Shown one piece after another: positions 318 through 63,815 of a stretch of 64,000 bases of DNA. Within the stretch, counting starts at the first letter, position 1. Every line of letters begins with the position of its first letter. The stretch comes from Mobula hypostoma. Taxonomy: Eukaryota. The stretch lies in assembly GCF_963921235.1 (NCBI RefSeq), contig NC_086108.1, positions 51,276,001 through 51,340,000 of the forward strand, read 5' to 3'. The notes beneath the pieces were generated by a model, which was not told the DNA's origin, made no database searches, and worked only from the letters and a program-made list of their open reading frames with translations. A program made the translations under genes and the position numbers.

Positions 318-1290
318 CAGTGGTGAGAAAGTTTTTGAATTCTTTAGTATTTTCACTATGTCTGCATAAACAGGACTTAAAATGTGATCAGACCTTCATG
401 CAAGTCCTAAAATTAGATAAAGAGAACCAGTTATATAACACAAAAAACATTGTACTTATTTATTTATTAAGAAAACTGATCCAATATTACATGTATTTGT
501 TGGAAAAAGTATGTGAATCTCTAGGATTATTCGATAATTTAAAGGGGAAACTAGAGTCAGGACCAGAACAGCTTGGCATCATTGATGGAACTATGAATTC
601 TGAATTGTACCAGCAAAATCTACAGAAAAATGTCAGGGTATCCATCCATGAACTGAAACTCAAGAGAAAGTGAGTCATGAAGCAAGACTCTGCTCCTTTG
701 TCTTGTGATCTCTGCTCCTTTGTCTTGTGATCTCTGCTCCTTTGTCTTGTGATCTCTGCTCCTTTGTCTTGTCTTGTGAAGCAAGATAACAACCCTAAAC
801 ATTCAAGTCAGTCTACCAAACAATGGTTAAAGCAGAGGAAATTTCACATTTTAGAATGGCCAAGTCAAAGACCTGACCTTAATCCTATAGAAATGTTGTC
901 GAAGAACCTAAAGCAAGCAGTTCATGCCAGGAAGCCCACCAACACCCCAGAGTTGAAGCAGTTTTGTAAGAAGGAATGGCCTAAGATTCCTCCAAGCCCA
1001 TGTGCAGAACTGATCAACAGTTACCAGAAACATTTGGTTGAAGTTATTGCTGAACAAGGGGGTCACACCAGTTACTGAAAGCAAAGGTTTACATACTTCT
1101 TTCAACAAATACATGTAATATTGGAACATTTTTCTCAATAAATAAAAAGTACAATTTTTGTGTTATTTATTTAATTCGGTTCTCCTTATTTAGTTTTAGG
1201 ACTTGTGTGAACATTCGTTCACATTTTAGGTCATATTTATACAGAAATAAAGAAAATTCTAAAGGGTTCACCAACTTTCCAGCACAGCTG
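318..1290 (+). mobile_element. Internally deleted Tc1-family DNA transposon with ~200-bp TIRs
   Basis: TA|CAGTG...AGCTG|TA termini; long inverted repeats at ~318-520 and ~1085-1290; DDE C-terminal remnant QDNNPKH...WPSQRPDLNPIE. Confidence 0.88.
688..776 (+). repeat. 22-bp minisatellite (CTCTGCTCCTTTGTCTTGTGAT) x4 inside the Tc1 transposase remnant
   Basis: Units start at 688, 710, 732 and 754. Confidence 0.92.
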
Positions 1291-4844: not shown

Positions 4845-7748
4845 GGACTTCATCACAGACTTTAAATAAAGACTTGTGTGAATGGGTATGTGCCTTTAAG
4901 AACACATCAGACATACCCAAACCAGAAGTCGCATATGAACCAGGAGATTTGCAGTCTGCTGAGAGCTAGATCAGTGGAATTCAACAGTGGTGATCCAGAA
5001 CTCTACAGGAAGTCCAACTACGGCCTGCAAAAAGCTACTATAAGAGTGAAAAAGCAATTCCGAGTGAAGTTATAGATGCAATCAGATGGACGTCAGCTGT
5101 GGTACAGTTTGCATGCCACTTCTATCTACAAGTTGAAATCTACCATCATAAATGGTTTTGATGCTCATGCACATCTTGAAAAGGAGAATAATACTACAGC
5201 TACGTAAGTCGCTATGGCATCTGCCGGACTCTGTGATATCGATCTTGGCAGCCGATGTTAGAATCTCCTTGAAAAGCTGAACCCTCACAAAGTACCAGGC
5301 CCCGATAGTGTACCTGGTAGAGCACTCAAAACCTGTGAGAATCGATTGGCTGGAATGTTCAAGAACATCTTCAACCTCTCACTGCTGAGCTGGAAGTTCT
5401 CATCTGCTTCAAAAGGGAACCAATCATACCACTACCGGAAAAAAGCAGGGTGAGCTGCCTCAACAACTATCACCGGGTAGCATTCACTACTAGACCCACT
5501 GCAACTTACCTACCACCACAATAGGTCTACCGCAGTTAGAATCTCACTGACTCTCCAAATTACCTTGGACCACCTATACCATAGCAATATCTATGTTAGG
5601 CTGCTGTTTATTAATTACAGCTCTCCTTTACTTGTACAATTAGCCAAAATTTCTATTCTAAATATAAATCCTATGATTAAGCAGTCATTACGAATCTGGT
5701 ATCAGTTTCGTAAGTTTTTTAATCTTAAAAAATTTAACCTTTTTAGTTTAATTTATCGAAACTATTTATTTAAACCTTCACTTAGTCATCCTATCTTTTC
5801 TCTTTGGAGGAATAAAGGAACTTTTTCCTTTATGGATTTGTTTCATAGAAGGTCGATTGATGTCCTTTGAGAAATTAGTAACTAAATATTCTCTCCCATA
5901 TTCACATTTTTTGCAATGTCTTCAGGTCAGACATTTCTTACAAGAATATTTAAGTAATTTTCCATATATACAAGATTATGACCTGTTAGACATTATTTTA
6001 AAAATGAACCCTTTAGTGAAGGGTTTCATTGGGAAAATTTATGATTTACTATTACAACAGGATAACTATCCTTTACTTAAGATTAAGTAAGATTGGGAAA
6101 GAGAGCTTAACATGAGCTTGATAACAGAGGATTGGTTGCGAATTTTGAAGTTGGTCAACTCTTCTTCGATTTGTGCCAGTCATTCTCTAATTCAATTTAA
6201 AATTGTACATCATTATTATTTGACAAAGGAGAGATTGTCTAAAATATTTCCTAATGTAAATAGTCAGTGTGATAGATGTAAAACTGAGATAGCTAAATTG
6301 ACACATATGTTTTGGTCATGTACTGTATTGAAACAGTTTTGGAAATCTATTTTTTCTACCATTTCTAAAGCTTTAAAAATCAATTTACAACCTAATAACT
6401 TGACAGTTTTGTTTGGTATAATTCCTCAATACATTCACGGCATTTCTATATCAGACCAACACGTAATTGCATTTGTCACATTATTGGCTAGAAGCGTTAT
6501 TTTACTAAAATGGAAAGACGCCTCTGCTCCCACTTTGATACAATGGTTCTCTCAGGTGATGTTATGTCTTTCTTTCCAAAAAAAGTTTTAACATTTTGTT
6601 TTTTTTTATTATTATTGATATACTGTTCAGTTTGGTTGACAGTTTAACTCTTATTCTACATATGGATATGTTGTCTTGATTATCTTGATGTATTTTTCTT
6701 TGTTGTTGATTTTCAATAATAATTAATAAAAAGATTTAAAATGAAAAATGATTAATTACGGCTCAGCATTCAACACCATCATCTCCACAGTACTAATCAA
6801 TAAGCTTCAAAACATGGGCTATTTACCTCATTTTGCAACGAGATCCTTGACTTCCTCATTGGGAGACCAGTCAGTGCAGATCAGAAATAAGATCTCCTTG
6901 CTGACCGTCAACACAGATGAATCTCGAGGATGTGTGCTTAGCCCACTACTCTACTTTCTACACCTATGGCTAGGCACAGTTCAAACACCATTTATAAGTC
7001 CATCAATGATACCACTGTTGCTGGCAGAATCTTAAGATTGTGGCAAAGGGGCATAACGGCAGTGAGAATGATCAGCTTGTTGAGTGGTGTTGCAACAACT
7101 CAATGTCAGTAAGACCAAGGAATCGCCTGTGGACCAGGAAGGGGAAATAAGGTCAGCAGTAGAAAGGGTGAGCAGTGTCAAGTTCGTAGGTATCAATATC
7201 TTAGAATATCTATCCTGGGCCCAACAGTCAATGCAATCACAAAGGTGGCATGCAGCGGCTGTACTTCATTAGGAGTTTGAGGAGATTCGGTATATCACCA
7301 AAGACTCTAGCAAATTTCTATCAATGTACTGTGGAGTGTATTCTGACTGGTTGAATTAATGCCTAGTTTGGAGATCTGATGCACAGATCGTAAAGGCTGC
7401 AGAGAGTTGTAGACACAGCCAGTTCCATCACAGGCAGAAACCTCTGCACCATCGAGAACATCGTTAAAAGACGATGCCTCAAGAAGACAGCGTCCTTTAT
7501 TAAGAACTGTCACCACCATCCAGGACATGCCCTCTTCTCATTACTACTATCAAGGAGGTGGTACAGAAGCCTGAAAACCTTCACTGAATGATTTCGCTTC
7601 TTCCCCTCTGCCATTTGATTTCCTTTATACACTATTTGTTCCCTTTATACAGTATTTCTATATTTTTCTGAAAGTAATATTTATATCTTGCTCTTTACTG
7701 CTGCTGCCAAACAAATGTCAATGATAATAAGCCTGATTCAGATTCTGA
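4845..7748 (+). mobile_element. Degenerate Rex1/Babar-type LINE interrupted by an L1-like insertion
   Basis: RT motifs (VRLLFINYS/SAFNTII, GCVLSPLLY, LNVSKTKE) and (GATTCT)n tail. Confidence 0.8.
5624..6750 (+). mobile_element. 5'-truncated L1/Tx1-clade LINE
   Basis: ORF2 C-terminal zinc knuckle QFKIVH...CDRCKTEIAKLTHMFWSC; A-rich tail; 14-bp TSD ATTAATTAC(A/G)GCTC at 5610-5623 and 6751-6764. Confidence 0.85.
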
Positions 7749-7869: not shown

Positions 7870-8180
7870 CACACAAAAAATGCTGGAGGAATTTAGCAAG
7901 TCAGGAAGCATTCATGGGGGATGAGGAGAAACAGTGAACTTTTCAATACCCTTCATCAGGGCTGGAAAAGGAAGCAAAACCCAGAGTAAGATAGGGGAAG
8001 GGGGCAGAGTACAAATTGGCAGGTGATAGGTGAGATCAGGTGAGGGGCAAGGAAGAAATGTGAGTGGGGATAATGTGAGAAGCTGGGAGGTAATAGGTGG
8101 AAGATGTTAAAGATCTAAAGGAGGAAGAATCTAATAGGAGAGGACAGTGGACCATGTAACAAATGGAAGGTCGTGAGAAA
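7870..8180 (-). mobile_element. Old Penelope-like element terminal fragment
   Basis: cacacaaaaaatgctggaggaa... plus purine-rich tract, similar to the copies at 40055 and 45308; hammerhead core decayed. Confidence 0.6.
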
Positions 8181-10695: not shown

Positions 10696-10909
10696 CAACA
10701 ACAGGAATTCTGTAGATGCTGGAAATTCAAGCAACACACATAAAAATTGCTGGTGAACGCAGCAGGCCAGGCAGCATCTCTAGGAAAAGGTGCAGTCGAC
10801 GTTTCAGGCCGAGACCCTTCGTCAGGACTAACTGAAGGAAGAGTGAGTAAGGGTCTCGGCCTGAAATGTCGACTGCACCTCTTCCTAGAGATGCTGCCTG
10901 GCCTGCTGA
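10696..10909. mobile_element. Young Penelope-like terminal fragment with inverted duplication
   Basis: 11-bp TSD ATTACAGCCAG (10685-10695, 10910-10920); inverted arms 10760-10819 and 10849-10908. Confidence 0.85.
10794..10829 (-). ncRNA. Minimal type I hammerhead ribozyme motif (Penelope-associated)
   Basis: Minus strand AGTC-CTGACGA-AGGGTCTCGGCCT-GAAA-CGTC-GACT. Confidence 0.75.
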
Positions 10910-12504: not shown

Positions 12505-13325
12505 ATGATGAAGTGATGAGGAGACGTACAGGAGTGAGATCGATCAGCTGGTTGAGTGATGTCGCAACAACAACCTTGCACTCAGTGTCAGTAAGACCAA
12601 AAAATTGTTTGTGGGCTTCAGGAATGGAAAGTTGAGGGAAAGTCCTCATCAAGGGATCAGCAGTAGAAAGGGTAATCAGTTTCAAGTTTCTGGGTGCCAA
12701 CATCTCTGAGAATCTATCCTGGATCCAACAGATTGATGCAATTACAAAAAAAGGCACAACAGCAGCTATATTTCATGAGGAGTTTGAGGAGAATTGGTAA
12801 GTCACCAAAGACTTGCAAATCTCTACGGATGTACCACAGAGTCCATTCTAAGTGGTTACATCGCCGTCTAGTATGCGGAACCATTGCACAGGATTATAAA
12901 AGGCCGCAGAAAGTTGAAACCGCAGATAGCCCCATTATGGTCACTTGCCTTCCCGGCATTGAGGACGTCTTCTAAAGGTGATGCCTCAAAAAAGGCAGCA
13001 TCCATTATTAAGAACCCACATCACCCAGGATACACCCCCTTCCCATTGCAACCATCAAGGAGAAGGTAGAGGATCCTGAAGCATTTCAGGAACAGCTTCT
13101 TCTCCTCTGCTATCAGGTTTCTGAGTGGACCATGAACCCTAGTTCACGACCTCACTATTTTTAAAATCTTCTAAAATGTTTTTTTGCACTAATTTAATTT
13201 AATTTTTAAGTATATATTTCTTGTTGCAATTTACCGATTTTTATTGCAATGTACTGCTGCCACAAAATAACAAATTTCACAATGTATGCCAATGATTTTA
13301 AACTTGATTTTGTTTTGATTCTGAT
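12505..13325 (+). mobile_element. Rex1/Babar-type LINE 3' fragment
   Basis: AQQQLYFMRSLRR, ASIIKNPHHPG motifs and GATTCT tail. Confidence 0.78.
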
Positions 13326-14219: not shown

Positions 14220-15439
14220 TGTCATGGTCCGGTCTGTTGACTCCTCATTTCAGTTCATTTCCTTTTCCCGTGTTCCACTGGGCTCCTTGTTTAGGGCACC
14301 TGATCCTCATTCAAACTGGCAGCATAAAAACTCCAGCTTACATCTACTCTCTGCTGGTTCGTCACCGCAGCCAGGGTGGCTATGCTTATCCTGGAGCTGC
14401 CGAGAATCGTGGACTCTAAGTTGCTTTGGTGCCTGTGGCTGCTTAGAGAATTCAGTCGTTTTCATGTCCAGCTGAGTTGCTGGACGTTTTGCCACTACTC
14501 TGAGTCAAGATGTGAATTCTGTCGTTTTCACGTTCGGCTGAGATTTGCTGGCCAGTTGCCACCACTCCGAGCCAAGATACAAATGGACTGTCATCGTTTG
14601 GTTTTTGTCGTCTCGTCTCCAGCCAAGTAGGTCCAGCCGTTTGCTGCTACTCCGAGTTGGGAATCTGTCTCTTTGTGTCCAGCTAAGTGATTGCCGGCTG
14701 TTTGCCACTTCATGAGCTTCTCCATGTCAAGATTCGTATTGTCAGTCGTTGGTTGGGTTAGTTGTTTCATTTCCAGCTGATAGGTCTGGCCGTTTGCCAC
14801 TACTCCGAGTTGGGAATCTGTCTCTTCGTGTCCAGCTGAGTGAATGCCGGCCATTTGCAGCTTCATGAGCTACTCTGTGTCAGGGTATGGATTGTCTGTT
14901 GTTGTTTGGATTGGTCGCCTCGTTTCCAGCTGAGTAGGTCTGGCCGTTTGCCACTACTCCGAGTTGGGTATTCTGTCTCTCCATGTCCGAGTCCAAGTTC
15001 AAGTCCAGGCTCTGTGTCCAAGTCTGAGTCCAAGACCAGGCACCGGGTCCAAGTCCAAGTCCGAGTCCAAGTCCAAGTCCGAGTCCAAGTCCAGGCTCGG
15101 TGTCCAAGTTCTAGTCCAAGTCCAGGCTCTGTGTCCAAGTCCTAGTCCAAGTTCAGGCTCCGGGTCCAAGTCCGAGTCCAAGTCCAGGCTCTGTGTCCAA
15201 GTCCTAGTCCAAGTCCAGGCTCTGTGTCCAAGTCCAGGCTCCATGTCTGAATCCAAGTCCAAGTCCAGGCTCCGTGTCCGAGCTCCTCATGTTTGTTGTC
15301 CCGCATCCTCGTCTGTGTAAGCATTCTATCCTCGCTCCCCGGTTTTCCTGGCAACTATTAATAAACACACTTCTGTTATTGCTACGTACGTGTCTGTGTC
15401 CTGCTCTTGGGTCTGCTCCCAAACGCTGCCCATGTAACA
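14220..15439 (+). mobile_element. Solo LTR (Gypsy-like) with internal tandem repeats
   Basis: TGTCA...TAACA termini; 5-bp TSD CAGAT (14215-14219, 15440-15444); AATAAA at 15360. Confidence 0.88.
14985..15285. repeat. (GTCCAA/GTCCGA/GTCCAG)n hexamer array within the solo LTR
   Basis: Directly visible tandem hexamers with a recurring GGCTCT/GGCTCC higher-order unit. Confidence 0.9.
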
Positions 15440-18649: not shown

Positions 18650-19180
18650 CTCTTATAAAACATTATTTTAACGCCAGTATTGAGTCCCTCTCGAGCGTGT
18701 CTGCATTAGGTCAGCGTCCAAGCGAAAGGATCCGGTTGGTGAGAAGGGTTATAATTCATGTTGAGCGACGCGTTTTCAGCACCTGCCTGGGGAACAGGGC
18801 CTGATCAGTTTCAACAGTACGCCAACTGGTTGAAGCGGGGGCTGAGAACATTCGCACCGAGCTGTCTAAACAACATTGTGGCAGAAGCCACAGTTACTCT
18901 GACGGACGAGAGAGCGTCAGTGACCTTCCAGACTTTCAAGAAAATGGGGGAAGAGCTGAAATGGAAAAAAGCCCACGACGCGTTTAAAGTGCGCTGGGAC
19001 AGAACCGACGACTGTTTGTGCCGCAACAGCATGTCCTTCTTCCTGCACAAAACCATCAGAAGTGACTTTTTTTCCAGCTACCTTTTTCTCTTGGAGGGGC
19101 TGCCTCTGGGTGAGTTTGACTGACGCTGCGGTCTGGTCGCCTACAGAGATTCGGCACCGCGGCGAGAATGAAAATATCCG
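18650..19180 (+). promoter_or_regulatory. CpG-enriched NTMT2 promoter/exon-1 region with TATA-like boxes
   Basis: Local CpG enrichment; TATAAAA at 18654-18660 and TTATAAT at 18749-18755; the transcription start cannot be determined from sequence. Confidence 0.5.
18944..19109 (+). CDS. NTMT2: NTMT2 (METTL11B) coding exon 1
   Basis: MGEELKWKKAHDAFKVRWDRTDDCLCRNSMSFFLHKTIRSDFFSSYLFLLEGLPL matches the NTMT2-specific N-terminus (human AHFAFRSRWQKTDDELCRHSMSFILHKAIRNDFFQSYLYLLEKIPL). Strong Kozak AAAATGG, donor G|GTGAGT, phase 1. Confidence 0.92.
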
Positions 19181-20790: not shown

Positions 20791-21308
20791 AGCAAGAGTA
20801 AAATGATAGTCAGGGACAAAATCAGGTGTGGTCACCTACGCATGGAGCTGAAAGATTTGGGGGAGACGTTAAATGGATTTTTTCCATTGGTATTTATTTG
20901 GGAGACTGACTCAGAGTCTATGGAAGAGAGGCAAAGCAGCAGTGAGATCACGGACCATATACAGATGACAGAGGAGGAGATGCTTGCACCGATTAGGGTG
21001 GGAAAACCCCAGGGCCTGACAGGCTGTAACCTTGGCCCTGTGGGAGGCTAGAACAGAAATGGCAGGGGCCCCAGAAGAGAGATTTAAAATGTCCTTAGCC
21101 ACAGGTGGATTGGAGAATAGCTAATGTTGTTCCATCGGTTAAGAAAGATTCCAAAAATAAGCCAGAAAATCATAGGCTGTGAGCCTGACATCAGTAGTTG
21201 GTAAGTTATAGGAGAGTATTCTAAGGGACCAGATATTTGGATAGACAGAGATTGATTAGGGATAGTGGCTTTGTGTGTGGTAGGTTGTGTCCAACCAATC
21301 TTGTAATA

Positions 21309-21928
21309 TGATGTAAACCAATCTTGCTGAACATCTACGCTCTGTCCGCCAGAGAAAGCAGGATCTCCCAGTGGCCACACATTTTAATTCCACATCCCAT
21401 TCCCATTCTGACATGTCTATCCACGGCCTCCTCTACTGTAAAGATGAAGCCACACTCAGGTTGAAGGAACAACACCTTATATTCCGTCTGGGTAGCCTCC
21501 AACCTGATGGCATGAACATCGACTTCTCTAACTTCCGCTAGGCCCCACCTCCCCCTCGTACCCCATCTATTACTTATTTTTATGCACACATTCTTTCTCT
21601 CACTCTCCTTTTTCTCCCTCTGTCCCTCTGAATATACCTCTTGCCCATCCTCTGGGTCCCCCCACCTTGTCTTTCTTCCCGGACCTCCTGTCTCATGATC
21701 CTCTCATATCCCCGTTTGCCTATCACCTGTCCAGCTCTTGGCTCCATTCCTCCCCCTCCTGTCTTCTCCTATCATTTTGGATCTCCCCCTCCCCCTCCAA
21801 CTTTCAAATCTCTTACTCACTCTTCCTTCAGTTAGTCCTGACGAAGGGTCTCGGCCTGAAACGTCGACTGCACCTCTTCCTACAGATGCTGCTTGGCCTG
21901 CTGCGTTCACCAGCAACTTTGATGTGTG
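21309..21928 (+). mobile_element. 5'-truncated Penelope-like element (GIY-YIG C-terminus plus terminal repeat)
   Basis: Stop-free frame 21326-21541 AEHLRSVRQRKQDLPVATHFNSTSH...RLKEQHLIFRLGSLQPDGMNIDF; 12-bp TSD AATCTTGTAATA (21297-21308, 21929-21940). Confidence 0.88.
21834..21869 (+). ncRNA. Minimal type I hammerhead ribozyme motif (Penelope-associated)
   Basis: AGTC-CTGACGA-AGGGTCTCGGCCT-GAAA-CGTC-GACT. Confidence 0.78.
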
Positions 21929-23019
21929 AATCTTGTAATAGTTTTTTTTTGAGCAAGTTACCAGGAAACTTGATGAAGGCAAGTCAGCGGATGTTGTCTA
22001 CATGGACTTTAGCAAGACCTTTGACAACATCTCACATAGGAGGTTGGTCAAGAAGGTTCAGTCGCTTGGCATTCAAGATGAGGTAGTAATTTGGATTAGA
22101 TATTGGCTTCACAGGAGAAGCCAGAGAGTGGTGGTAGATGGTTGCCTTTCTGAATGGAGGCCTGTGACTAGTGGTGTGCCTCAGGGACTGGTGTTGGTTC
22201 CATTGTTGTTTGTCATCTATATCAACGATCTGGATGGTAATGTAGTAAACTGGGTCAGCAAATTTGAGGATGACAGTAAGGTTGGATATGTAATGGACAG
22301 GGAGGAAAACAATCAAAGCTTGCAGAGGTATCTGGACCAGCTGGGAAAAATGGGCTGGAAAATGGCAGATGGAACTTAATGCAGACAAGTCTGAGGTGTT
22401 GCACTTTGGGAGGACAAACCAGGGTAGGTCTAGCACAGTGAGTGGTAAGGTGCTGAGGAGTGTGGTAAAACAGAGGGATCTGAGCATACAGACCTTTAAT
22501 TCCTTGAAAGTGGTATTCTGGGTAGATAGGGTTGTAAAGAAAGCTTTTGGCACATTGGACTTCATAAATAAAATTATTGAGTACAGGAGTTAGGATGGTA
22601 TGTTGAAATTGTATAAAGTATTGATGAGGCCTAATTTGGAGAATTGTGTGCAATTTTGGTCACCTACCTATAAGAAAGATATCAATTAGACTGAAATAAT
22701 GCAGAGAAAATTTACAAGGATGTTGCCTGGACTTGAGGACTTGAGTTATCGAGAAACGTTGAATAGATTAAAACTTTATTCCCTGGAGAATAAAAACATG
22801 CGGGGAGATTTGATAGGGGGATACAGTTATGAGGGGTTAAATGCAAGCAGGCTTTTTTCCACTGCGGTTGGGTGAGAGTAAGGCTGAAAGATGAAATGTT
22901 TAAGGGGAACATGAGGAAGAACTTCTTCAATCAGAGTGTGGAACGAGCTGCCAATGGAAGTGGTGGATGTGGGTTCGATTTGATATCTAGGAGAAATTTG
23001 CTGAGGTACATGGGTGGAT

Positions 23020-24098
23020 ACCAGTACTAATCAACAAGCTCCAAAACCTGGGCTTTTGTGCTTCCTGCAAATAGATCCTTGACTTCCTCACTGGGAGAAC
23101 ACAGACAGTGAGGATTGGAAATAACATCTCCTCCTCACTGACAGTCAGCCCTGGTACCCCTCAAGGATGCCTGCTTAGCCCACTGCTGTACCCTCTCTGC
23201 AACCATAATTGGGTGGCTAGGCACAGCTTAAATGACATCTTTAAATTTGCCGATGACAGAACTATTGTTTGCAGAGTTACAGACTGTGAAGAGGAAGCAT
23301 ACAGGAGTGAGATAGGTCAGCAAGCTGAATGGTGTAGTAACAACAACCTTGCATTCACAGTCAGTCAGACAAGGGAATTTATTGTGGACTTCAGGATGCG
23401 GAATTCAAGGGAACTCATCAAGGGCTCAGTAGTGGGGAAAGGGTTAACAGTTTAGAGTTCCTGGGTATCAACATCTTCATGCAATTATTATTACTGTGAC
23501 CAACATTTTAATGCAATTATGAAGAGGGCAGGATGATGGCTATGTTTCATTAGGTGTCTGAGGAGACTTGGTATGTTACTAAGACACTCGCAAATTTCTA
23601 CAGAGACGCACGGAGAACATTCTACCTGATTGCATCACTATCTGGTATGGAGGGGCAACTGCACAGGATTAGAAAAAGCTACAGAAAGTTGCCAACTCAG
23701 CCAGCTCCATCATGGGCACCAGCCTCCCCAGCATTGAGGATATCTTCAAAAGGTGATGTCTCCAAAATGTGGCATCCATCTTTAAGGACTCCTATCAACC
23801 AGGACATGCTCCCTCATTGTTGCTATCAAGAAGGAAGTGCAGGAGTCTGAAGACACACACTCTATGTTTTAGGAACAGCTTCTTCCCCTCCACCATCAGA
23901 TTTCTGAATTGACAATACTTTACCTCACTATTTTTTGCTTTCTTTTTGCACACTTATTTAATTTAAAATTTTTAATATATACAGTAATCCTCATTGTAAT
24001 AGATAGTTTTAGATTATGTACTGCAATATGCTGCTGCTCCAAAACACCACATTTCACAACATATGCCAAATATTAAATCTGATCCTGACTGTGATTCT
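23020..24098 (+). mobile_element. Rex1/Babar-type LINE 3' half nested in CR1
   Basis: [22 protein letters not shown] motifs; GATTCT-like tail. Confidence 0.82.
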
Positions 24099-26147: not shown

Positions 26148-26520
26148 CACACATACAAAATGCTGGAAGAACTCAACAGGCCAGGCAGCACTCATGTGTT
26201 CCCAAGTACGCCTGCCTTTTTGTCGGCTACGTGGAACAGTCTATGTTTGAAACCTATACTGGTGTCTGTCCCCCACTTTTCCTACACTACATCGATGTCT
26301 GCATTGGTGCTGCTTCCTGCTTGTCAACTTCATCAACTTTGCCTTCAACTTCCACCCTGCCCTCAAATTTACCTGGTCCATTTCCAACAGTTTCCTCCCC
26401 TTTCTCGATGTTTCAGTCTCTATCTATGAGACAGCTTATCTGCTGATGTCTGTTATAAACCCTCAGACTCTCACAGCTACCCGGACTATACCTCTTCCCA
26501 CCCTGTTACTTCCCACCCTG
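26148..26520 (+). mobile_element. Penelope-like RT fragment with a short inverted terminal piece
   Basis: PKYACLFVGYVEQSMF...LFLHYIDV (degenerate RYIDD motif), preceded by acacatacaaaatgctggaagaactc in the opposite orientation. Confidence 0.72.
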
Positions 26521-34807: not shown

Positions 34808-35600
34808 AGATCAGAATCAGAGTCATAATCGGGTTTATTATTACTGACATATGTCATGAAATTTGCTATTTTGTGCCAACAATACAGTGCAAGACATAAC
34901 AATTACTATAAATTACAAAAATAAATCAATAAGTTGTTCAAAAAAAGGAATAGTAAGTTGGTTCATGGACTATTCAGAAATCTAATGACAGAGGAGAATT
35001 CTTATTATGTTAATTGTGGATCTTTAGGCTCCTTGATGGTGAAATGAGAAGAGGGCATGTCCCAGATGGTGAGACTCCTCACTAATGGATGCTACCTTCT
35101 TAAGGCACCACATTTTGAAGATGTCCACGATGAAGGGGAGACTTGTGCCTGTGATGGAGCTGGCTGAATCTACAAGACTATGGACCCTCTTTTGATACTG
35201 TGCGTTGGAGTCTCCATGCCAGACAGTGATGCAACCAGTCAGCAGCCTCTCCACTGTACAATGGTAGAAATCTGCTAGAATCATTGCTGACCTACTAAAT
35301 CTCCTCAAATTGCTAATGAAATAGAGCCACTGGCACACCTCCTTCATGATTTTATCAGCATGTTAGGCCCAGTATAGATCCTCTGAGGTGATCATGCCCA
35401 GGAACTTGAAGCTGCTCACCTTTTCCACCGCTGACCCCTCAGTGAGTACTGGTGTATATTCTTCTGACTTCCCTTTCCTGAAGTCCAGAATCAATTCCTT
35501 TTTCCAACTGATGTTGAGCAGTAGGCTAAATATGCATCCTTTAGGTGCGCTGATGTTGATTATCAACGAGGAGGAGATGATGTTACTGATTTGCAGTGAC
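34808..35600 (-). mobile_element. Rex1/Babar-type LINE 3' portion
   Basis: KELILDFRKG, SSFKFLG, LLTGCITVWHG; (AGAATC)n tail on the plus strand. Confidence 0.8.
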
Positions 35601-37769: not shown

Positions 37770-38000
<231 letters not shown>

Positions 38001-39890: not shown

Positions 39891-40022
39891 CCTGACGAAG
39901 GGTCTCGGCCTGAAACGTCGACTGCACCTCTTCCTATAGATGCTGCCTGGCCTGCTGCGTTCACCAGCAACTTTGATGTATGTTGCTTGAATTTCCAGCA
40001 TCTGCAGAATTCCTGTTGTTTG
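39891..40022 (+). mobile_element. Young Penelope-like terminal fragment starting at the hammerhead core
   Basis: Near-identical to 21837-21928; flanked by CACAAAAA(A)TGAC (39879-39890, 40023-40035). Confidence 0.82.
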
Positions 40023-40054: not shown

Positions 40055-40760
40055 GGACAAAAATGCTGGAGGAACTCAGCAGGTCAGTCAGCTTCTATGG
40101 AAATTAGTAAACAGTCAACGTTTCGGACCAAAACTCTTCATCAGGACTGGAAAGGAAGGGGGGAAGAAGGCAGAATAAGGTGAAAGGAGGAGAAGGAGGT
40201 GAAGTCAGGTGGGTGTGAGATGAGGGAATGAAGTAAAAACAGGGAGGTGATAAGTAGAAAACGTGAAGGAGTCTGATAGAAGAAGAATCAACCAAGAGAG
40301 AAAAGGAAGTAGGAAGGATATCAGGGGAGGAGATGGTCAGGGAAGCAGAAGAGAAGAGGTAAGAGGGAGCCACAGTGGAGAATTGAAGAAAAAAGAAGGG
40401 GGATGGAGCAAAATTACTGGATGTTAGAGAAATCAATGTTCATACCATCACGATGGAGGCTACACAGACAGAATATGAGGTGTTGTTCCTCCAATCTCAT
40501 CAAGGCAGCAGAAGGGGCTGTGAACTGACAGGTCAGAATGGGAATGGGGACTGGAATTGAAATAGTTGACCACTGGGAAATCCTGTCTTTTTATAGCAGC
40601 TGGAGTAAGGGTGCTTGACAAAGTGGTTTCCCAATCTATGTTGGATCTCAGTGCAGAGGAGGCCACATTGGGAGCACCAGATACGTAGATAACCACAACA
40701 GATTCACAGGTGAAGTATTGTGCTGAAGTGACTTAGAGCACTCATGGTGCGAAGGGGAAG
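40055..40760 (-). mobile_element. Older Penelope-like element 3' part
   Basis: GIY-YIG remnant (QDFPVVNYFNSSPHSHSDLSVH) and degenerate hammerhead at 40112-40149. Confidence 0.75.
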
Positions 40761-45307: not shown

Positions 45308-46032
45308 CACACAACAAAATGCTGGAGGAACTCAGCTGGTCAGGCAGCATCTATGGAAATGATAAACAGTTGACGTTTTGGGATGAGACCTTTCTTCAAG
45401 ACTGTGAAGGAAAGGGGAAGACTCCAGAAGAAAAAGGTTGGGGGGGGTGGAGGAGAAGGAGGATTAGCTGAAGGTGATAGATGAAGCCAAGCAGATGGGA
45501 AAGATGAGAGGCTGGAAAAGAAAGAATCTGATAGGAGAGGGAGTGAACCATGGGAGAAAGGGAAGAAGAAGAGGCACCAGGTGGAGGTGATAGGCAGGTA
45601 AGGAGAGGAGGTACTCTTAGAAAGGATAGGCTGAGTAACCTGGGGCTTTTCACTTTGGGGAGAGGGAGGGTGAGGGGTAACTTGATAGAGGTGTACAAAA
45701 TAATAAGAAACATAGATCGTGTGCATAGCCAGAGACATTCTCCCAGGGAAGAAATCCAAGGGGTGTAACTCTAAAGTGTTCGTAGTAATGTATAGAGAAG
45801 ATATCAGAGGTAGGATTTTTACACAGAGAACGGTAAGTGCATGGAATGCACTGCCAAGGATAATGTAGAGCAGATACATTACAGGCATCTAAAAGACTCT
45901 TAGATAGGCACATGGATAAAAAAAATGGAGGACTTTGTGGGAGGGAAGGGTTAAATTGATATTGTAGTTAGAGAGTCATCACAACATCGTGGGCCAAAGG
46001 GCCAATACTGCACTGTACTGTTCTATGTTCTG
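45308..46032. mobile_element. Penelope-like fragment (minus, to ~45610) abutting a CR1 3' end (plus)
   Basis: aaaatgctggaggaactcagc head; DRLSNLGLFTL...RGNLIEVYKII; tail tgttctatgttct. Confidence 0.7.
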
Positions 46033-47361: not shown

Positions 47362-48919
47362 TGTCATGGTCCGGATTGGGGTCCCTTTAAATTTACCTTG
47401 TTTATGTTACGATCTGGACCGTTGATTCCCTGCTTTCCTGTGTCCCTCAACTTTGGTGATTAGAGGCAATTAACGCTCCGCTGAACTGGTAGTTTATAGT
47501 CTCCGGCTTTCAGCTGTTCGGCGCGGGAGCGTCTGCAAAGTATGCAAAGTCACGGCGTGCTAATGTCATCTGCCCGAAGCGAGTGCCGGTAATTCGCCTT
47601 TCCTCACCGGAGCAACCCTGTCCAGTTACCTCGCCGAATCGAGCCTGCAAAGTTTCCTCATCAAAGTGGGTCCGTCAGTTAACCCGCTGCAGAGAATCGA
47701 GAGCCGCTGTCTACTGTTCCCGGGCCGAGTTGAGAGCTCGACACTACCCGGAAGTCCCAAGCACCACGTCCTGGCTCCGGCGGCATCCAAGTACCACGTC
47801 CACGTCCTGGCCCTGGTGGCGTTCAAGTACCGTGTCAAGTCCTGGCCTTAGCGGCGTTCAAGTACCATATCAAGTCCTGGCCCTGGTGGCTTCCCAGTTT
47901 TGAGTCAAGTACTAGCCCTGACGGTCTGTGATTCCTGTCCTACCGGTCTGAATCCCTTCCCTGCCCCTCTGGCCTCTAGCCCTCGTCTGCAGCCCCGCCT
48001 GCACTTCGGTCTAGTTCCATCACCAGAGCTAGATAGGTACTGTCTGGTGTTCATTCATGTTGGTCTTGTCTTGTCTTGTCCTCGCCTCCATGGGGTAAGT
48101 CTAGCCGTCTTGCTGTTGCCCCGCGGGGAGTCATGTCTTGTCCTGTCCTCGCCTTCATGGGGTAAGTCAGGCCGTCTTGCCATTGCCCCGTGAGGAGTCA
48201 TGTCTTGTCTTGTCCTGTCCTCGCCTCCGTGGGGTAAGTCAGGCCATCTTGCCGTTGCCCCGCGGGGAGTCATGTCTTGTCTTGTACTGTCCTCGCCTCC
48301 GTGGGGTAAGTCAGGCTGTCTTGCAGTTGCCCCGCAGGGGTCATGTCTTGTCGTGTCTCGTCCTCGCCTCCGTGGGGTAAGTCAGGCCATCTTGCTGTTG
48401 CTCCCGCGGAGGATCATGAGTCCCGGCCCTACGTCCTGTACCCTAGGAGGGGTCCCGGCTCTCTGTTCCATGTGCGAGTCCCGGCCCTCTGTCCTGTACC
48501 CAAGGAGGGGTCCCGGCTCTCTGTTCTGTGTATGTGTCCATGGTTCCATGTACCTGCTCTCCCAAGACCGAGGCTCTGTTTTCCATGTTCCTCCTCTCCC
48601 TAGCCCATGTCATGTCCATGCCTGGTTCTGGGGTCCGAGCCCGAGGCAAGACCCAGGTACTGGGTCCTTGCCCAGTCTCGGGCTCAGAGTCCATACCCTA
48701 TCCTCTTCATGTCTCCTCTAGTTCTGGGAGTCGATTCTGAGTCCTAGCCCAGACCCTTGGTCCCAGCCTAGTCGTAGTCCTCAGTCCTTGCCTAGTTCGC
48801 TATCTTCTGCTCCTGCCTTGCTCTCCTCGTATCGAACAATAAACTAAATCTAAGTAACCTCACAAGATGTGTCTTGCATTTGGGTCCACCCTTGCTCCCA
48901 AAGCCCTGCCATTGTGACA
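47362..48919 (+). mobile_element. Solo LTR (Gypsy-like) related to 14220-15439
   Basis: TGTCA...TGACA termini; 5-bp TSD GGAGC (47357-47361, 48920-48924); shares the TGTCATGGTCCGG start; AATAAA at 48838. Confidence 0.9.
48056..48415 (+). repeat. Five tandem 67-76-bp units inside the LTR
   Basis: Units start near 48056, 48132, 48199, 48271, 48342. Confidence 0.9.
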
Positions 48920-52366: not shown

Positions 52367-52627
<261 letters not shown>

Positions 52628-53377: not shown

Positions 53378-53725
<348 letters not shown>

Positions 53726-57867: not shown

Positions 57868-58035
57868 AGGAAATCTTCAGATGCTGGAAATCCAAGCACG
57901 ATTACTACTACTACGTCGACTCAGGCCTAGGGGGCCAGTGTTGGGCGTGATGCCAAGCAACACACACAAAATGCTGGAGAACTATGGAAAGGAGTACAGT
58001 CGACATTTTGGGCCGAGACCCTTCATCAGGACAGT
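57868..58035 (-). mobile_element. Penelope-like terminal fragment with mutated hammerhead and a 54-bp nested insert
   Basis: Minus strand CTGATGA-AGGGTCTCGGCCC-AAAA-TGTC. Confidence 0.7.
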
Positions 58036-60960: not shown

Positions 60961-62395
60961 AATGGCAGCGATGCTTCACTACTAGATGAACTCAATGCCT
61001 TCTATGCACGCTTTGACAGGAAGAACACGACTACAGCTATGAAGATCCCTGCTGCACCTGGTGACCCTATGATCTCTGTCTCAGAGGCCAACGTTAGACT
61101 GTCTTTAAAGAGAGTTAACCCTCACAAGGCAGAAGGTCCTGATGGAGTACCTGGTAAGGCTCTGAAAACCTGTGCCAACCAACTATCTGGAGTATTCAAG
61201 GACATCTTCAGCATCTCACTGTGACTAGACTGAAATCCTGCCTCAGCAAGGACATGAACCCATTGCAATTAGCCTGTCGTCACAATAGGTCAATGGCAGA
61301 CGCAATCTCCATGGCTCTCCACATGGATTTAGACCACCTGGAAAACACAAACACCTACATCAGGATGCTGTCCATTGTCTATAGCTCAGCATTTAATACG
61401 ATAATTCCCACAATCCTGATTGAGAAGTTGCAGAACCTGGGCCTCTGTACTTTCCCCTGTAATTGGATCCTCGACTTCCTATATGGAAGACCACAGTCTG
61501 TGTGGTTTGGTGATAACATATCCTCTTCGCTGATGATCAACACTGGCACACCTCAGGGGTGTGTGCTTAGCCCACTGCTCTACTCTCTGTATACACATAA
61601 CTGTGTGGCTAGGCACAGTGCAAATATCATCTACAAATTTGCTGACGATACATCCATTGTTGGTAGAATCTCAGGTGGTAATGAGATGGTGTACAGGAGT
61701 GAGATATGCCAACTAGTGGAGTGGTGCCGCAGCAACAACCTGGCACTCAACGTCAGTAAGACATAAGAGCTGATTGTGGACTTCAGGAAGGGTAAGACGA
61801 AGGAACACATACCAATCCCTATAGAGGGATCAGAAGTGGAGAGAGTGAGCAGCTTCAAGTTCCTGGGTGTCAAGATCTCTGAGGATCTAACCTGGTCCCA
61901 ACATATTGATGTAGGTATAAAGAAGGTAAGACAGCAGCTATACTTTATTAGAAGTTTGAAGAGATTTGGCATGTCAACAAATACACTCAAAAACTTCTAT
62001 AGTTGTACCGTGGAGAGCATTCTGACAGGTTGCATTACTGTCTGGCATGGAGGGGCTACGTCACAGGACTGAAAGAAGCTGCAGGAGGTTGTAAATCAAG
62101 TCAGCTCCATCTTGGGTACTAGCCTACAAAGTGCCCAGGACATCTTTAGGGAGCGGCGTCTCAGAAACGGAGTGTCCATTATTAAGGACCTCCAGCACCC
62201 AGGGCATGCCCTTTTCTCACTCTTACCATCAGGTAGGAGGGACAGAAGCCTAAAGGCACATACTCAGCGATTCAGGAACAGCTTCTTCCCCTCGGCCATG
62301 CGATTCCTAAATGAACATTGAAGCTTTGGACACTACCTCATTTCTTTAATATACAGCATTTCTGTTTTTGCACATTATTTGATAATCTATTCAAA
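60961..62395 (+). mobile_element. Rex1/Babar-type LINE RT region
   Basis: SSAFNTIIP, GTPQGCVLSPLLYSLYT, YKFADDTSIVG, LNVSKT, RFRNSFFP. Confidence 0.88.
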
Positions 62396-63169: not shown

Positions 63170-63815
63170 AAGAAAGTATGGTGGGGGGGGGAGGGGGAGG
63201 ACTACAGCTAGCAAGCTAGGTGAGACCAGGTAACCGGTAAGGTGGGTGGGTTGGGGACGGGTGGATGAGGTAAGAAGCTAGGAGGAGCTATGTGGAAGAG
63301 GTAAAGGGCGGAAGAAGAAAGAATCCAATAGAGGAGGCCAGTAAAGCATGGAAGAAAGGGAAGGAGGAGGGAAACCAGAGGGAGGTATATTTGTTTTGTT
63401 TTACTTGGTTTGCAAAATTTAAAAGTTTGTAGTAAATTGAACTAAAGTTTCAATCATTGTAGATACTGGTTTTGCCATGTTTTCAATTAACTGGGAACTA
63501 AGCCAGTCATTCTATGTAAACGAATGATTGACTTGCACTTCTTCCAGTCAAGTCTACTGTATTTGGTGTCTTCTATATTGGAGAAACCAAATACTAATTA
63601 GATGACCGCTTTGAGGATTTTCTCCAGCGGCAATTCAGAGCTTTCTACTGGCTGACATTTTAATTCTCCAACCACCTCACACTCTGACCCATCTGCCAAC
63701 GGCCTTTGGAACTGCTTTTAAGAATTCCAGTGTAGACTGAGGAACAGCATATCATCGTTCATCTTCTGGCCGTTTACTACTAAATTCTGCAAATTTGGGT
63801 AACTTACTTTCTCTG
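63170..63815. mobile_element. Degraded Penelope-like fragments in both orientations
   Basis: Purine-rich terminal tract and GIY-YIG-like remnant (YIGETK, RLRNSI...). Confidence 0.5.

What the first reader, a model, noticed from the sequence alone, without database searches (positions are those of the whole stretch)
21834..21869. Dispersed minimal hammerhead ribozymes carried by a young Penelope-like family
Seen: AGTC-CUGACGA-(AGG..CCU stem II)-GAAA-CGUC-GACU. Both hammerhead catalytic boxes are intact, stem I is AGUC/GACU, the cleavage triplet is GUC, and stem III is reduced to the palindrome ACGU. It sits ~290 nt after a stop-free GIY-YIG C-terminus. An identical motif is at 10794-10829(-), a core-only copy at 39892-39923(+), and decayed copies at 40112(-), ~45365(-), ~57997(-) and ~7930(-). 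Established: Penelope-like elements carry such minimal type I hammerheads, thought to cleave as dimers through the palindromic stem III. Inference: this copy is sense within NTMT2 intron 1, so it is transcribed in the pre-mRNA and might cleave it if it pairs with another copy.
Basis: partly seen in the sequence, partly recalled or inferred. Interest (0 to 1): 0.78.

Follow-up and report, generated by a model that had tools for sequence, protein, structure and literature searches.

The report
Ray Penelope retrotransposon's minimal hammerhead
This small self-cutting-RNA motif is standard cargo in the end repeat of a young Penelope-like jumping gene, present in about 33,000 identical copies in a ray-like fish genome; the copy inside a host gene intron is likely an inert leftover.

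Summary
Observation confirmed. The 36-mer at 21834-21869 has both hammerhead boxes, a GUC site and the ACGU palindrome. It ends a 605-bp, 5'-truncated copy of a Penelope-like element (PLE), sense in NTMT2 coding intron 1. The genome holds 32,886 identical copies (reversed control 0) and 98,552 core matches (control 118). Four fetched copies show repeat-ORF-repeat units (3.5 kb, about 98% identical); two have an unbroken 1,043-codon RT + GIY-YIG frame with the Neptune-type zinc linker. This is a published kind (Cervera 2014), and the scan has noted it before in other shark/ray genomes.

Corrections: stem II likely reads GGGU/GCCU after a bulged A; the decayed copies belong to older subfamilies; young copies lose catalytic G8 at about the neutral CpG rate. 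Pre-mRNA cleavage is unsupported: the lone motif is predicted to misfold, the only other core-intact sense copy is 18 kb away and lacks a stem I arm, and 46,894 copies were reverse-transcribed straight through the motif. One weak new hint: insertion starts are about twice as frequent at the cut site as at neighbouring positions (22 versus 5, 12, 5, 16), which is inconclusive.

The parts
21324..21928 (+). 5'-truncated copy of the young PLE family (endonuclease C-terminus, pseudo-LTR, hammerhead, ending at the first of two preferred 3' ends)
   Evidence: 95.4-96.9% identical to the repeats of full-length copy L039
21323..21541 (+). Last 72 codons and stop of the PLE ORF (C-terminal half of the GIY-YIG domain)
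   Evidence: 71 of 72 residues match P0121 972-1043; the full ORF hits GIY-YIG and RVT_1 below Pfam cut-offs; the fragment alone has no Pfam hit
21834..21869 (+). Minimal type I hammerhead motif: stem I AGUC/GACU, CUGACGA, bulged A, stem II GGGU/GCCU, GAAA, ACGU palindrome, predicted cut after 21865
   Evidence: Sequence; 32,886 identical genomic copies; folding
21297..21308 (+). Left copy of a 12-bp target-site duplication, followed by about 15 nt of filler
   Evidence: Seen directly; the same 12 bases at 21929-21940
21929..21940 (+). Right copy of the 12-bp target-site duplication; the interrupted sequence is an older LINE RT fragment (CR1-like label recalled)
10697..10853 (-). Short young PLE end with the identical hammerhead at 10794-10829, reaching the second preferred 3' end
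   Evidence: 94.9% to L039
10849..10908 (+). Inverted partial arm joined back to back with the 10697-10853 copy
39891..40021 (+). Young PLE end truncated inside stem I; core and cut site intact; sense in NTMT2 intron 2
   Evidence: 98.5% to L039
40049..40716 (-). Older-subfamily PLE end with endonuclease remnants and hammerhead at 40113-40148 (boxes intact, GUU triplet)
   Evidence: 72-76% to L039
45308..45412 (-). Older-subfamily PLE end, hammerhead 45368-45403 with both boxes mutated
57982..58033 (-). Older PLE end, hammerhead 57998-58033 with G12 mutated
7870..7965 (-). Old PLE end with a partly deleted hammerhead
18944..19109 (+). NTMT2 coding exon 1 (host gene)
   Evidence: tblastn with ray NTMT2 proteins, 93%; donor site
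37780..37955 (+). NTMT2 coding exon 2 (host gene)

Best explanation
The motif is the minimal type I hammerhead in the pseudo-LTR of a young, very abundant Penelope-like retrotransposon, likely of the Neptune clade, and the copy at 21834 is a 5'-truncated insertion that is likely inert in the NTMT2 intron. Shown: full-length elements are repeat-ORF-repeat units of 3.5 kb with a hammerhead in each repeat. Copies end at two sites about 60 and 98 nt downstream of the motif, so reverse transcription (inferred) starts downstream and runs through an uncut hammerhead. Inferred: selection keeps the motif only in replicating parent elements, where it would cut slowly and conditionally, as a dimer through ACGU or with help from the element's protein, trimming the RNA near its 5' end. 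Inserted copies then decay like other methylated DNA.
For: [quoted passage not shown] Copy numbers: 32,886 exact, 46,894 with both flanks, 98,552 core matches; 16 of 20 core matches in 600 kb of arbitrary sequence have both stems fully paired. 3' ends: 136 of 308 copies at +55 to +70, 144 at +91 to +110, 2 between, the 30-40-bp tail of PMC8557442 and PMC11167929. Between subfamilies, the free N7 varies (C 29, T 33, A 12, G 1 of 75) while G8 stays (66 of 75; A in 2). In contigs of four other organisms, flanks diverge and loose ends fall at the motif's borders. 7 of 13 distant PLE loci (26-33% protein identity) carry a same-strand minimal hammerhead with different, still complementary stems and palindromes. 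Neutral decay: tolerated C7U 2,317 versus core-breaking G8A 1,416 (ratio 1.64); the same context bias outside the motif is 1.46 (95% CI 1.05-2.02). The lone 36-mer folds best into an inactive rod (-10.0 against -6.0 kcal/mol for stems I+II), and with flanks stems I and II are lost.
Against: No cleavage assay or raw RNA reads exist here, so activity of any copy is untested. The 1.64 ratio exceeds the point estimate 1.46 (binomial p 7e-4 if 1.46 were exact), so slight selection on G8 is not excluded. An anchor-selected check independent of the motif was weaker (G8 kept in 15 of 20 old copies; core 0.80 versus stems 0.79), and the 75-copy set was chosen by likeness to the motif. No compensatory pairs occur within this genome. 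Clade assignment rests on motifs, without a tree. Pfam hits lie below the curated cut-offs.
Confidence: 0.87

Rival explanations
1. The intronic copy cuts NTMT2 pre-mRNA by pairing with another copy, so such insertions damp host genes.
For: It is sense in intron 1 with an intact core; a second sense core lies at 39891 in intron 2; tens of thousands of copies could supply partners.
Against: The partner is 18 kb away beyond exon 2 and keeps only 1-2 stem I pairs, and it folds otherwise. A nested one-site active dimer scores -8.8 against -28.3 kcal/mol for the inactive dimer. Published minimal hammerheads show no monomer cleavage and low dimer cleavage (PMC4209133); the Anolis one needs the element's protein, and no cut ends were seen in RNA-seq (PMC11167929). 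Core-breaking mutations accumulate at about the neutral rate.
Confidence: 0.05
2. In this family the motif is kept mainly for a role other than cutting, such as a protein-binding fold, the start of the transcript, or a splice acceptor whose AG is the first two bases of stem I.
For: The young family has G10.1-U11.1 instead of G-C, and one older subfamily has A6C (6 of 75). 5' ends cluster just upstream of the motif (11 of 23 unbiased copies start between -23 and +11). 21 of 30 older copies with pyrimidine-rich upstream sequence have YAG at motif positions 1-2. In D. virilis the PLE intron ends at helix I (PMC4209133), and hammerhead mutants do not impair insertion in vitro (PMC11167929).
Against: What is conserved across PLEs at about 30% protein identity is exactly the catalytic core, the cut triplet and a palindrome. 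No strong donor was found in the young repeat, and 0 spliced genomic copies joined the ORF end to the motif.
Confidence: 0.15
3. The short copies are an independent non-autonomous retrozyme or SINE family that spreads through circular RNA.
For: Most copies are short and non-coding; animal retrozymes are proposed to derive from PLE repeats (bioRxiv 10.64898/2026.07.22.740005).
Against: No head-to-tail arrays of motif-bearing monomers in the window or in 600 kb; copies are nested 5' truncations of the autonomous element sharing its two 3' ends.
Confidence: 0.04

Closest known systems
Minimal hammerheads (min-HHR) in pseudo-LTRs of metazoan PLEs, including fish Neptune, Poseidon and Xena (Cervera and De la Pena 2014, PMC4209133)
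   Same: [quoted passage not shown]
   Different: Scale and uniformity: 32,886 identical and 98,552 core matches against about 4,000 (coelacanth) and 9,000 (Xenopus) variable motifs and 97 identical in D. virilis (descriptors differ). G-U rather than G-C at 10.1-11.1 in the youngest family. No cartilaginous fish is named in the sections read.
Neptune-clade EN+ Penelope-like elements (Craig et al. 2021, PMC8557442)
   Same: Single ORF with RT then C-terminal GIY-YIG, CX2-5CxxC linker, CCHH motif, DKG, pseudo-LTRs, inverted 5'-truncated partner copies, 30-40-bp tail.
   Different: No microsatellite target preference was obvious in the junctions viewed; many insertions have 10-14-bp target duplications. 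No tree against named clade members was run.
Poseidon element PAc of Anolis carolinensis (Frangieh et al. 2024, PMC11167929)
   Same: Hammerhead in the repeat; two RT start sites downstream of it giving the tail; uncut RNA is the main template.
   Different: PAc's ORF starts inside the hammerhead and its RT starts lie 111-118 nt into the ORF in an AC-rich loop. Here the ends lie in UG-rich stretches about 60 and 98 nt past the motif, and the likely start codon is at +135 (or +57 in some copies). Poseidon lacks the zinc linker.
Animal non-LTR retrozymes (bioRxiv 10.64898/2026.07.22.740005)
   Same: Type I hammerheads related to PLE repeats, reported in one chondrichthyan.
   Different: Those are tandem arrays of motif-bearing monomers; these copies are dispersed truncations of an autonomous element.
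Conserved intronic hammerheads of amniotes such as RECK (reviewed in PMC6155905)
   Same: Type I hammerhead in an intron.
   Different: Those are conserved at one locus across species; this is a recent insertion about 3-5% diverged from its family.

Membership tests
Minimal type I hammerhead of PLEs | CUGANGA and GAAA boxes, U16.1 and an NUH cut triplet | tested here: met
Minimal type I hammerhead of PLEs | Short stem I, stem II, palindrome in place of helix III, extra base between 9 and 10.1 | tested here: met
   AGUC/GACU, GGGU/GCCU, ACGU, bulged A
Minimal type I hammerhead of PLEs | G10.1-C11.1 pair (highly conserved, not absolute) | tested here: inconclusive
   G-U in this copy; C in 37 of 75 motifs and dominant in other organisms
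Minimal type I hammerhead of PLEs | Position in both flanking repeats of a PLE | tested here: met
   L039, L040, L041, L047
Minimal type I hammerhead of PLEs | Self-cleavage after C17 as dimer or with protein | not testable with these tools
   No assay; only contigs available; genomic junction excess inconclusive
EN+ Penelope-like element | One ORF with PLE-type RT and C-terminal GIY-YIG with CCHH motif | tested here: met
   Pfam hits are below curated cut-offs, motifs read directly
EN+ Penelope-like element | Pseudo-LTR partial tandems, inverted truncated partners, 30-40-bp tail | tested here: met
Neptune clade | CX2-5CxxC zinc-finger-like linker between RT and endonuclease | tested here: met
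   CX4CX2C at residues 910-918; definition from PMC8557442; Nematis has a reduced form
Neptune clade | RT phylogeny groups with named Neptune elements | not tested
   No clade-labelled references among the 120 homologs listed
Non-LTR retrozyme | Tandem array of non-coding monomers each with a hammerhead | tested here: not met
   None in window or 600 kb
Domesticated intronic hammerhead | Same insertion conserved at the orthologous intron across species | not testable with these tools
   No relative genomes held; young age argues against it

The most novel reading that the evidence does not exclude
The ray genome keeps a fossil record of hammerhead cleavage in the germ line: a few hundred insertions start exactly at the base after the cut, about 2-4 times more than at neighbouring positions. 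That would be in vivo evidence that a PLE hammerhead cuts a small share of template RNAs, readable from one genome that carries about 100,000 core-intact ribozymes.
Probability: 0.25. Interest if true: 0.55.

Novelty: new member of a known kind. Interest (0 to 1): 0.3.

Why it matters
The biology is known: PLEs carry these motifs. What this genome adds is statistical power. About 33,000 identical and 100,000 core-intact copies, plus intact recent elements, make two open questions testable by computation: whether PLE hammerheads cut in vivo (a base-resolution map of insertion starts) and whether sense-intronic copies cost the host anything (orientation bias). The single intronic copy in NTMT2 is ordinary.

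Tried and rejected
Rfam at gathering threshold: 0 matches in the window. Loose core pattern in the window: not above chance. Folding z-scores of the motif are not significant (-0.37 and -0.19). Expression: no RNA holder listed; all 23 runs were contigs, which cannot show RNA ends. Splice test: 0 genomic copies join the ORF end to the motif within 12 nt, and no donor scored 6 of 9 or more in the young repeat. Preferential box conservation in young copies: not seen beyond sequence context. Motif-independent core-versus-flank comparison was confounded by truncations; its 3'-end count had an offset error and was redone. The motif list was incomplete and was redone. A T just before cut-site junctions looked like non-templated addition (17 of 22) but control positions show it too, so I dropped it. 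The seven-sequence motif alignment misregistered the stems, so no formal pair count was run. Pfam on the interrupted LINE was not run because its frames hold stops. Lunse et al. 2017 is not held. Look-up of earlier findings by sequence gave nothing.

Full report
Observation. The other copies are where claimed, within a few bases. The loose core pattern is not enriched in the window (12 found, 7.1 expected) and Rfam finds nothing, so the case rests on the family. The exact 36-mer occurs 32,886 times in the 3.48-Gb genome, against 0 for the reversed control. A relaxed core pattern gives 98,552 matches against 118; it does not check stems, but 16 of 20 such matches in 600 kb of arbitrarily chosen sequence have both stems fully paired.

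Host. NTMT2 exon 2 is 97% identical to a Hypanus sabinus protein, so the genome is likely a stingray-like batoid (inference). Coding exons lie at 18944-19109, 37780-37955, about 52370-52620 and 53465-53722 on +. The motif is sense in the 18.7-kb first coding intron. Upstream non-coding exons were not examined.

The element. A search with the 70-residue endonuclease fragment scored 150 places, two with 1,043-codon open frames. Of 15 long-frame loci fetched, L039, L040, L041 and L047 have two same-strand motifs 3,514-3,519 bp apart and are 97.7-98.5% identical. The L039 and L040 proteins hit RVT_1 and GIY-YIG below Pfam cut-offs. L040 shows DKG, YIDD, a CX4CX2C linker and two cysteines between the GIY and YIG motifs. 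By PMC8557442 this linker marks Neptune and Nematis, reduced in Nematis, so Neptune is likely; no tree was run. The closest homologs listed are bamboo-shark proteins at 69-73%. The window copy spans 21324-21928, is 95.4-96.9% identical to L039's repeats, has a 12-bp target duplication and interrupts an older LINE RT fragment (the CR1 label is recalled). Matches to the element cover 3.7% of the 600-kb sample.

How copies arise. Of 308 distinct copies in all fetched loci, 136 end at +55 to +70 and 144 at +91 to +110 past the motif, 2 between, 21 shorter and 5 longer. This is the PLE tail, which PMC11167929 traces to two RT start sites. Copying therefore likely starts downstream of the motif and passes through it. 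46,894 copies keep both flanks, so most templates were uncut there. Back-to-back inverted arms, as at 10697-10908, are common.

Is the motif selected? Between lineages, yes. Among 75 motifs within 11 mismatches in 664 kb, the free N7 is C 29, T 33, A 12, G 1, while the adjacent G8 is kept in 66 (A in 2); this set was chosen by likeness to the motif. An anchor-selected set was weaker: G8 in 15 of 20 older copies, core and stems alike at about 0.8. In contigs of four other coded organisms, flanks carry many near-fixed differences, the motif has one major one (U11.1 to C), and loose ends fall at its borders (the table was cut by 19 rows). 7 of 13 distant PLE loci carry a same-strand minimal hammerhead with other stems and palindromes; most of the other six end in or shortly after the ORF, and one has a motif on the opposite strand. 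Within young copies, hardly: at the N7-G8 CpG the tolerated change occurs 2,317 times and the core-breaking one 1,416 times, ratio 1.64, while the same context bias at 101 CpG sites outside the motif is 1.46 (95% CI 1.05-2.02). Slight selection is not excluded.

Structure. Stem II is better read as a bulged A plus GGGU/GCCU: older copies have GGG/CCC (C at that place in 37 of 75), matching the published consensus (PMC4209133). The youngest family thus has G-U at 10.1-11.1. The lone 36-mer prefers an inactive rod in which GACG pairs with the cut site (-10.0 kcal/mol against -6.0 for stems I+II only); with natural flanks both stems drop to about zero probability; a nested one-site active dimer scores -8.8 against -28.3 for the inactive dimer. 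These energies ignore tertiary contacts and proteins.

The pre-mRNA idea. In the window the only other core-intact sense copy is at 39891, 18 kb away in intron 2, and it keeps only 1-2 stem I pairs. Published minimal hammerheads do not cut as monomers and cut weakly as dimers (PMC4209133); the Anolis one needs the element's protein, is dispensable for insertion in vitro, and left no cut ends in RNA-seq (PMC11167929). I could not test RNA ends or intronic orientation bias. I rate the idea at about 5%.

Do insertions start at the cut? First series, two mismatching bases before the start: 226, 380, 839 and 467 matches for starts at +29, +31, +33 (the base after the cut) and +37. Junctions to non-element DNA were 2 of 20, 3 of 30, 5 of 30 and 2 of 30 sampled, after I removed 0, 2, 1 and 3 script calls as element-derived. 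That projects to about 23, 38, 140 and 31, with wide overlapping intervals. Second series, five A/T bases before the start: 5 of 7 at +26, 22 of 70 examined (71 found) at +33, 12 of 18 at +34, 5 of 17 at +36, 16 of 30 examined (32 found) at +38, after removing 0, 4, 2, 0 and 2. The excess at +33 is about twofold. Poisson p is 5e-4, but the controls are overdispersed (variance/mean 3.5; z 2.1), the +38 anchor differs slightly, and the series share some loci. It is a hint, covering under 1% of copies. None of 26 such copies runs into the ORF. A stronger cluster of starts lies just upstream of the motif: 11 of 23 unbiased copies begin between -23 and +11, 1 of 23 between +29 and +36. I checked this after earlier scan notes raised it.

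Literature seen. PMC4209133 and PMC11167929: parts 1-2 of 4 each. bioRxiv 10.64898/2026.07.22.740005: parts 1-2 of 5 and passages. PMC8557442, PMC6765202, PMC6155905: passages. Lunse et al. 2017: not held; known from its citation in PMC6765202 and from recall. Five searches listed no paper on hammerheads in ray or shark PLEs specifically, but the preprint includes one chondrichthyan, and no supplements were read; they may list such motifs. Hammerhead numbering is recalled standard usage.

Verdict. Real, correctly identified, and a new member of a known kind. The copy number is notable, the intronic copy is ordinary, and the scan has met this family before (85 findings in at least 23 genomes hold the search words). 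Interest 0.3.

Noticed in passing
window 21812-21835 and older copies such as 40147-40165(-): The first two bases of stem I (AG) follow a pyrimidine tract: 21 of 30 older copies with pyrimidine-rich upstream sequence have YAG there, and some young copies have a branch-point-like TACTAAC about 17 nt upstream. Possible splice acceptor, as for the D. virilis PLE intron; a sense copy in an intron could act as a cryptic acceptor. No spliced genomic copy was found.
   Followed up: partly
600-kb sample (C2 and C12 blocks): An older subfamily has CUGCUGA (A6C) in the catalytic box, 6 of 75 motifs, with a shared T-rich upstream flank, so the change was amplified.
   Followed up: no
window and 600-kb sample: 5' ends of young copies cluster between -23 and +11 of the motif, near two initiator-like words (label recalled); possibly the transcription start of the repeat.
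   Followed up: partly
L129-L131, L149-L167: Inverted-arm junctions recur at the same microhomologies in independent loci (9 of 20 sampled at one 4-base overlap; 3 loci share one odd junction).
   Followed up: no
window 26201-26510 (+) and 63504-63745 (+): Further PLE fragments: an RT piece about 80% identical to the young family and an old endonuclease remnant.
   Followed up: no
window 14628-15301, 47765-47924, 48063-48436: Tandem repeats of about 153, 31, 35 and 72 bases.
   Followed up: no
window 327-520 / 1085-1279: Pair of nested inverted repeats about 560-750 nt apart, 78-89% complementary; possibly a small DNA transposon.
   Followed up: no
window 6894-7576, 12513-13081, 23064-23855, 35050-35518(-), 61456-62255: Five diverged copies of another LINE-like repeat.
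   Followed up: no
L443:2517 (-): A metagenome contig carries a minimal hammerhead with the same ACGU palindrome, on the strand opposite to its PLE match.
   Followed up: no
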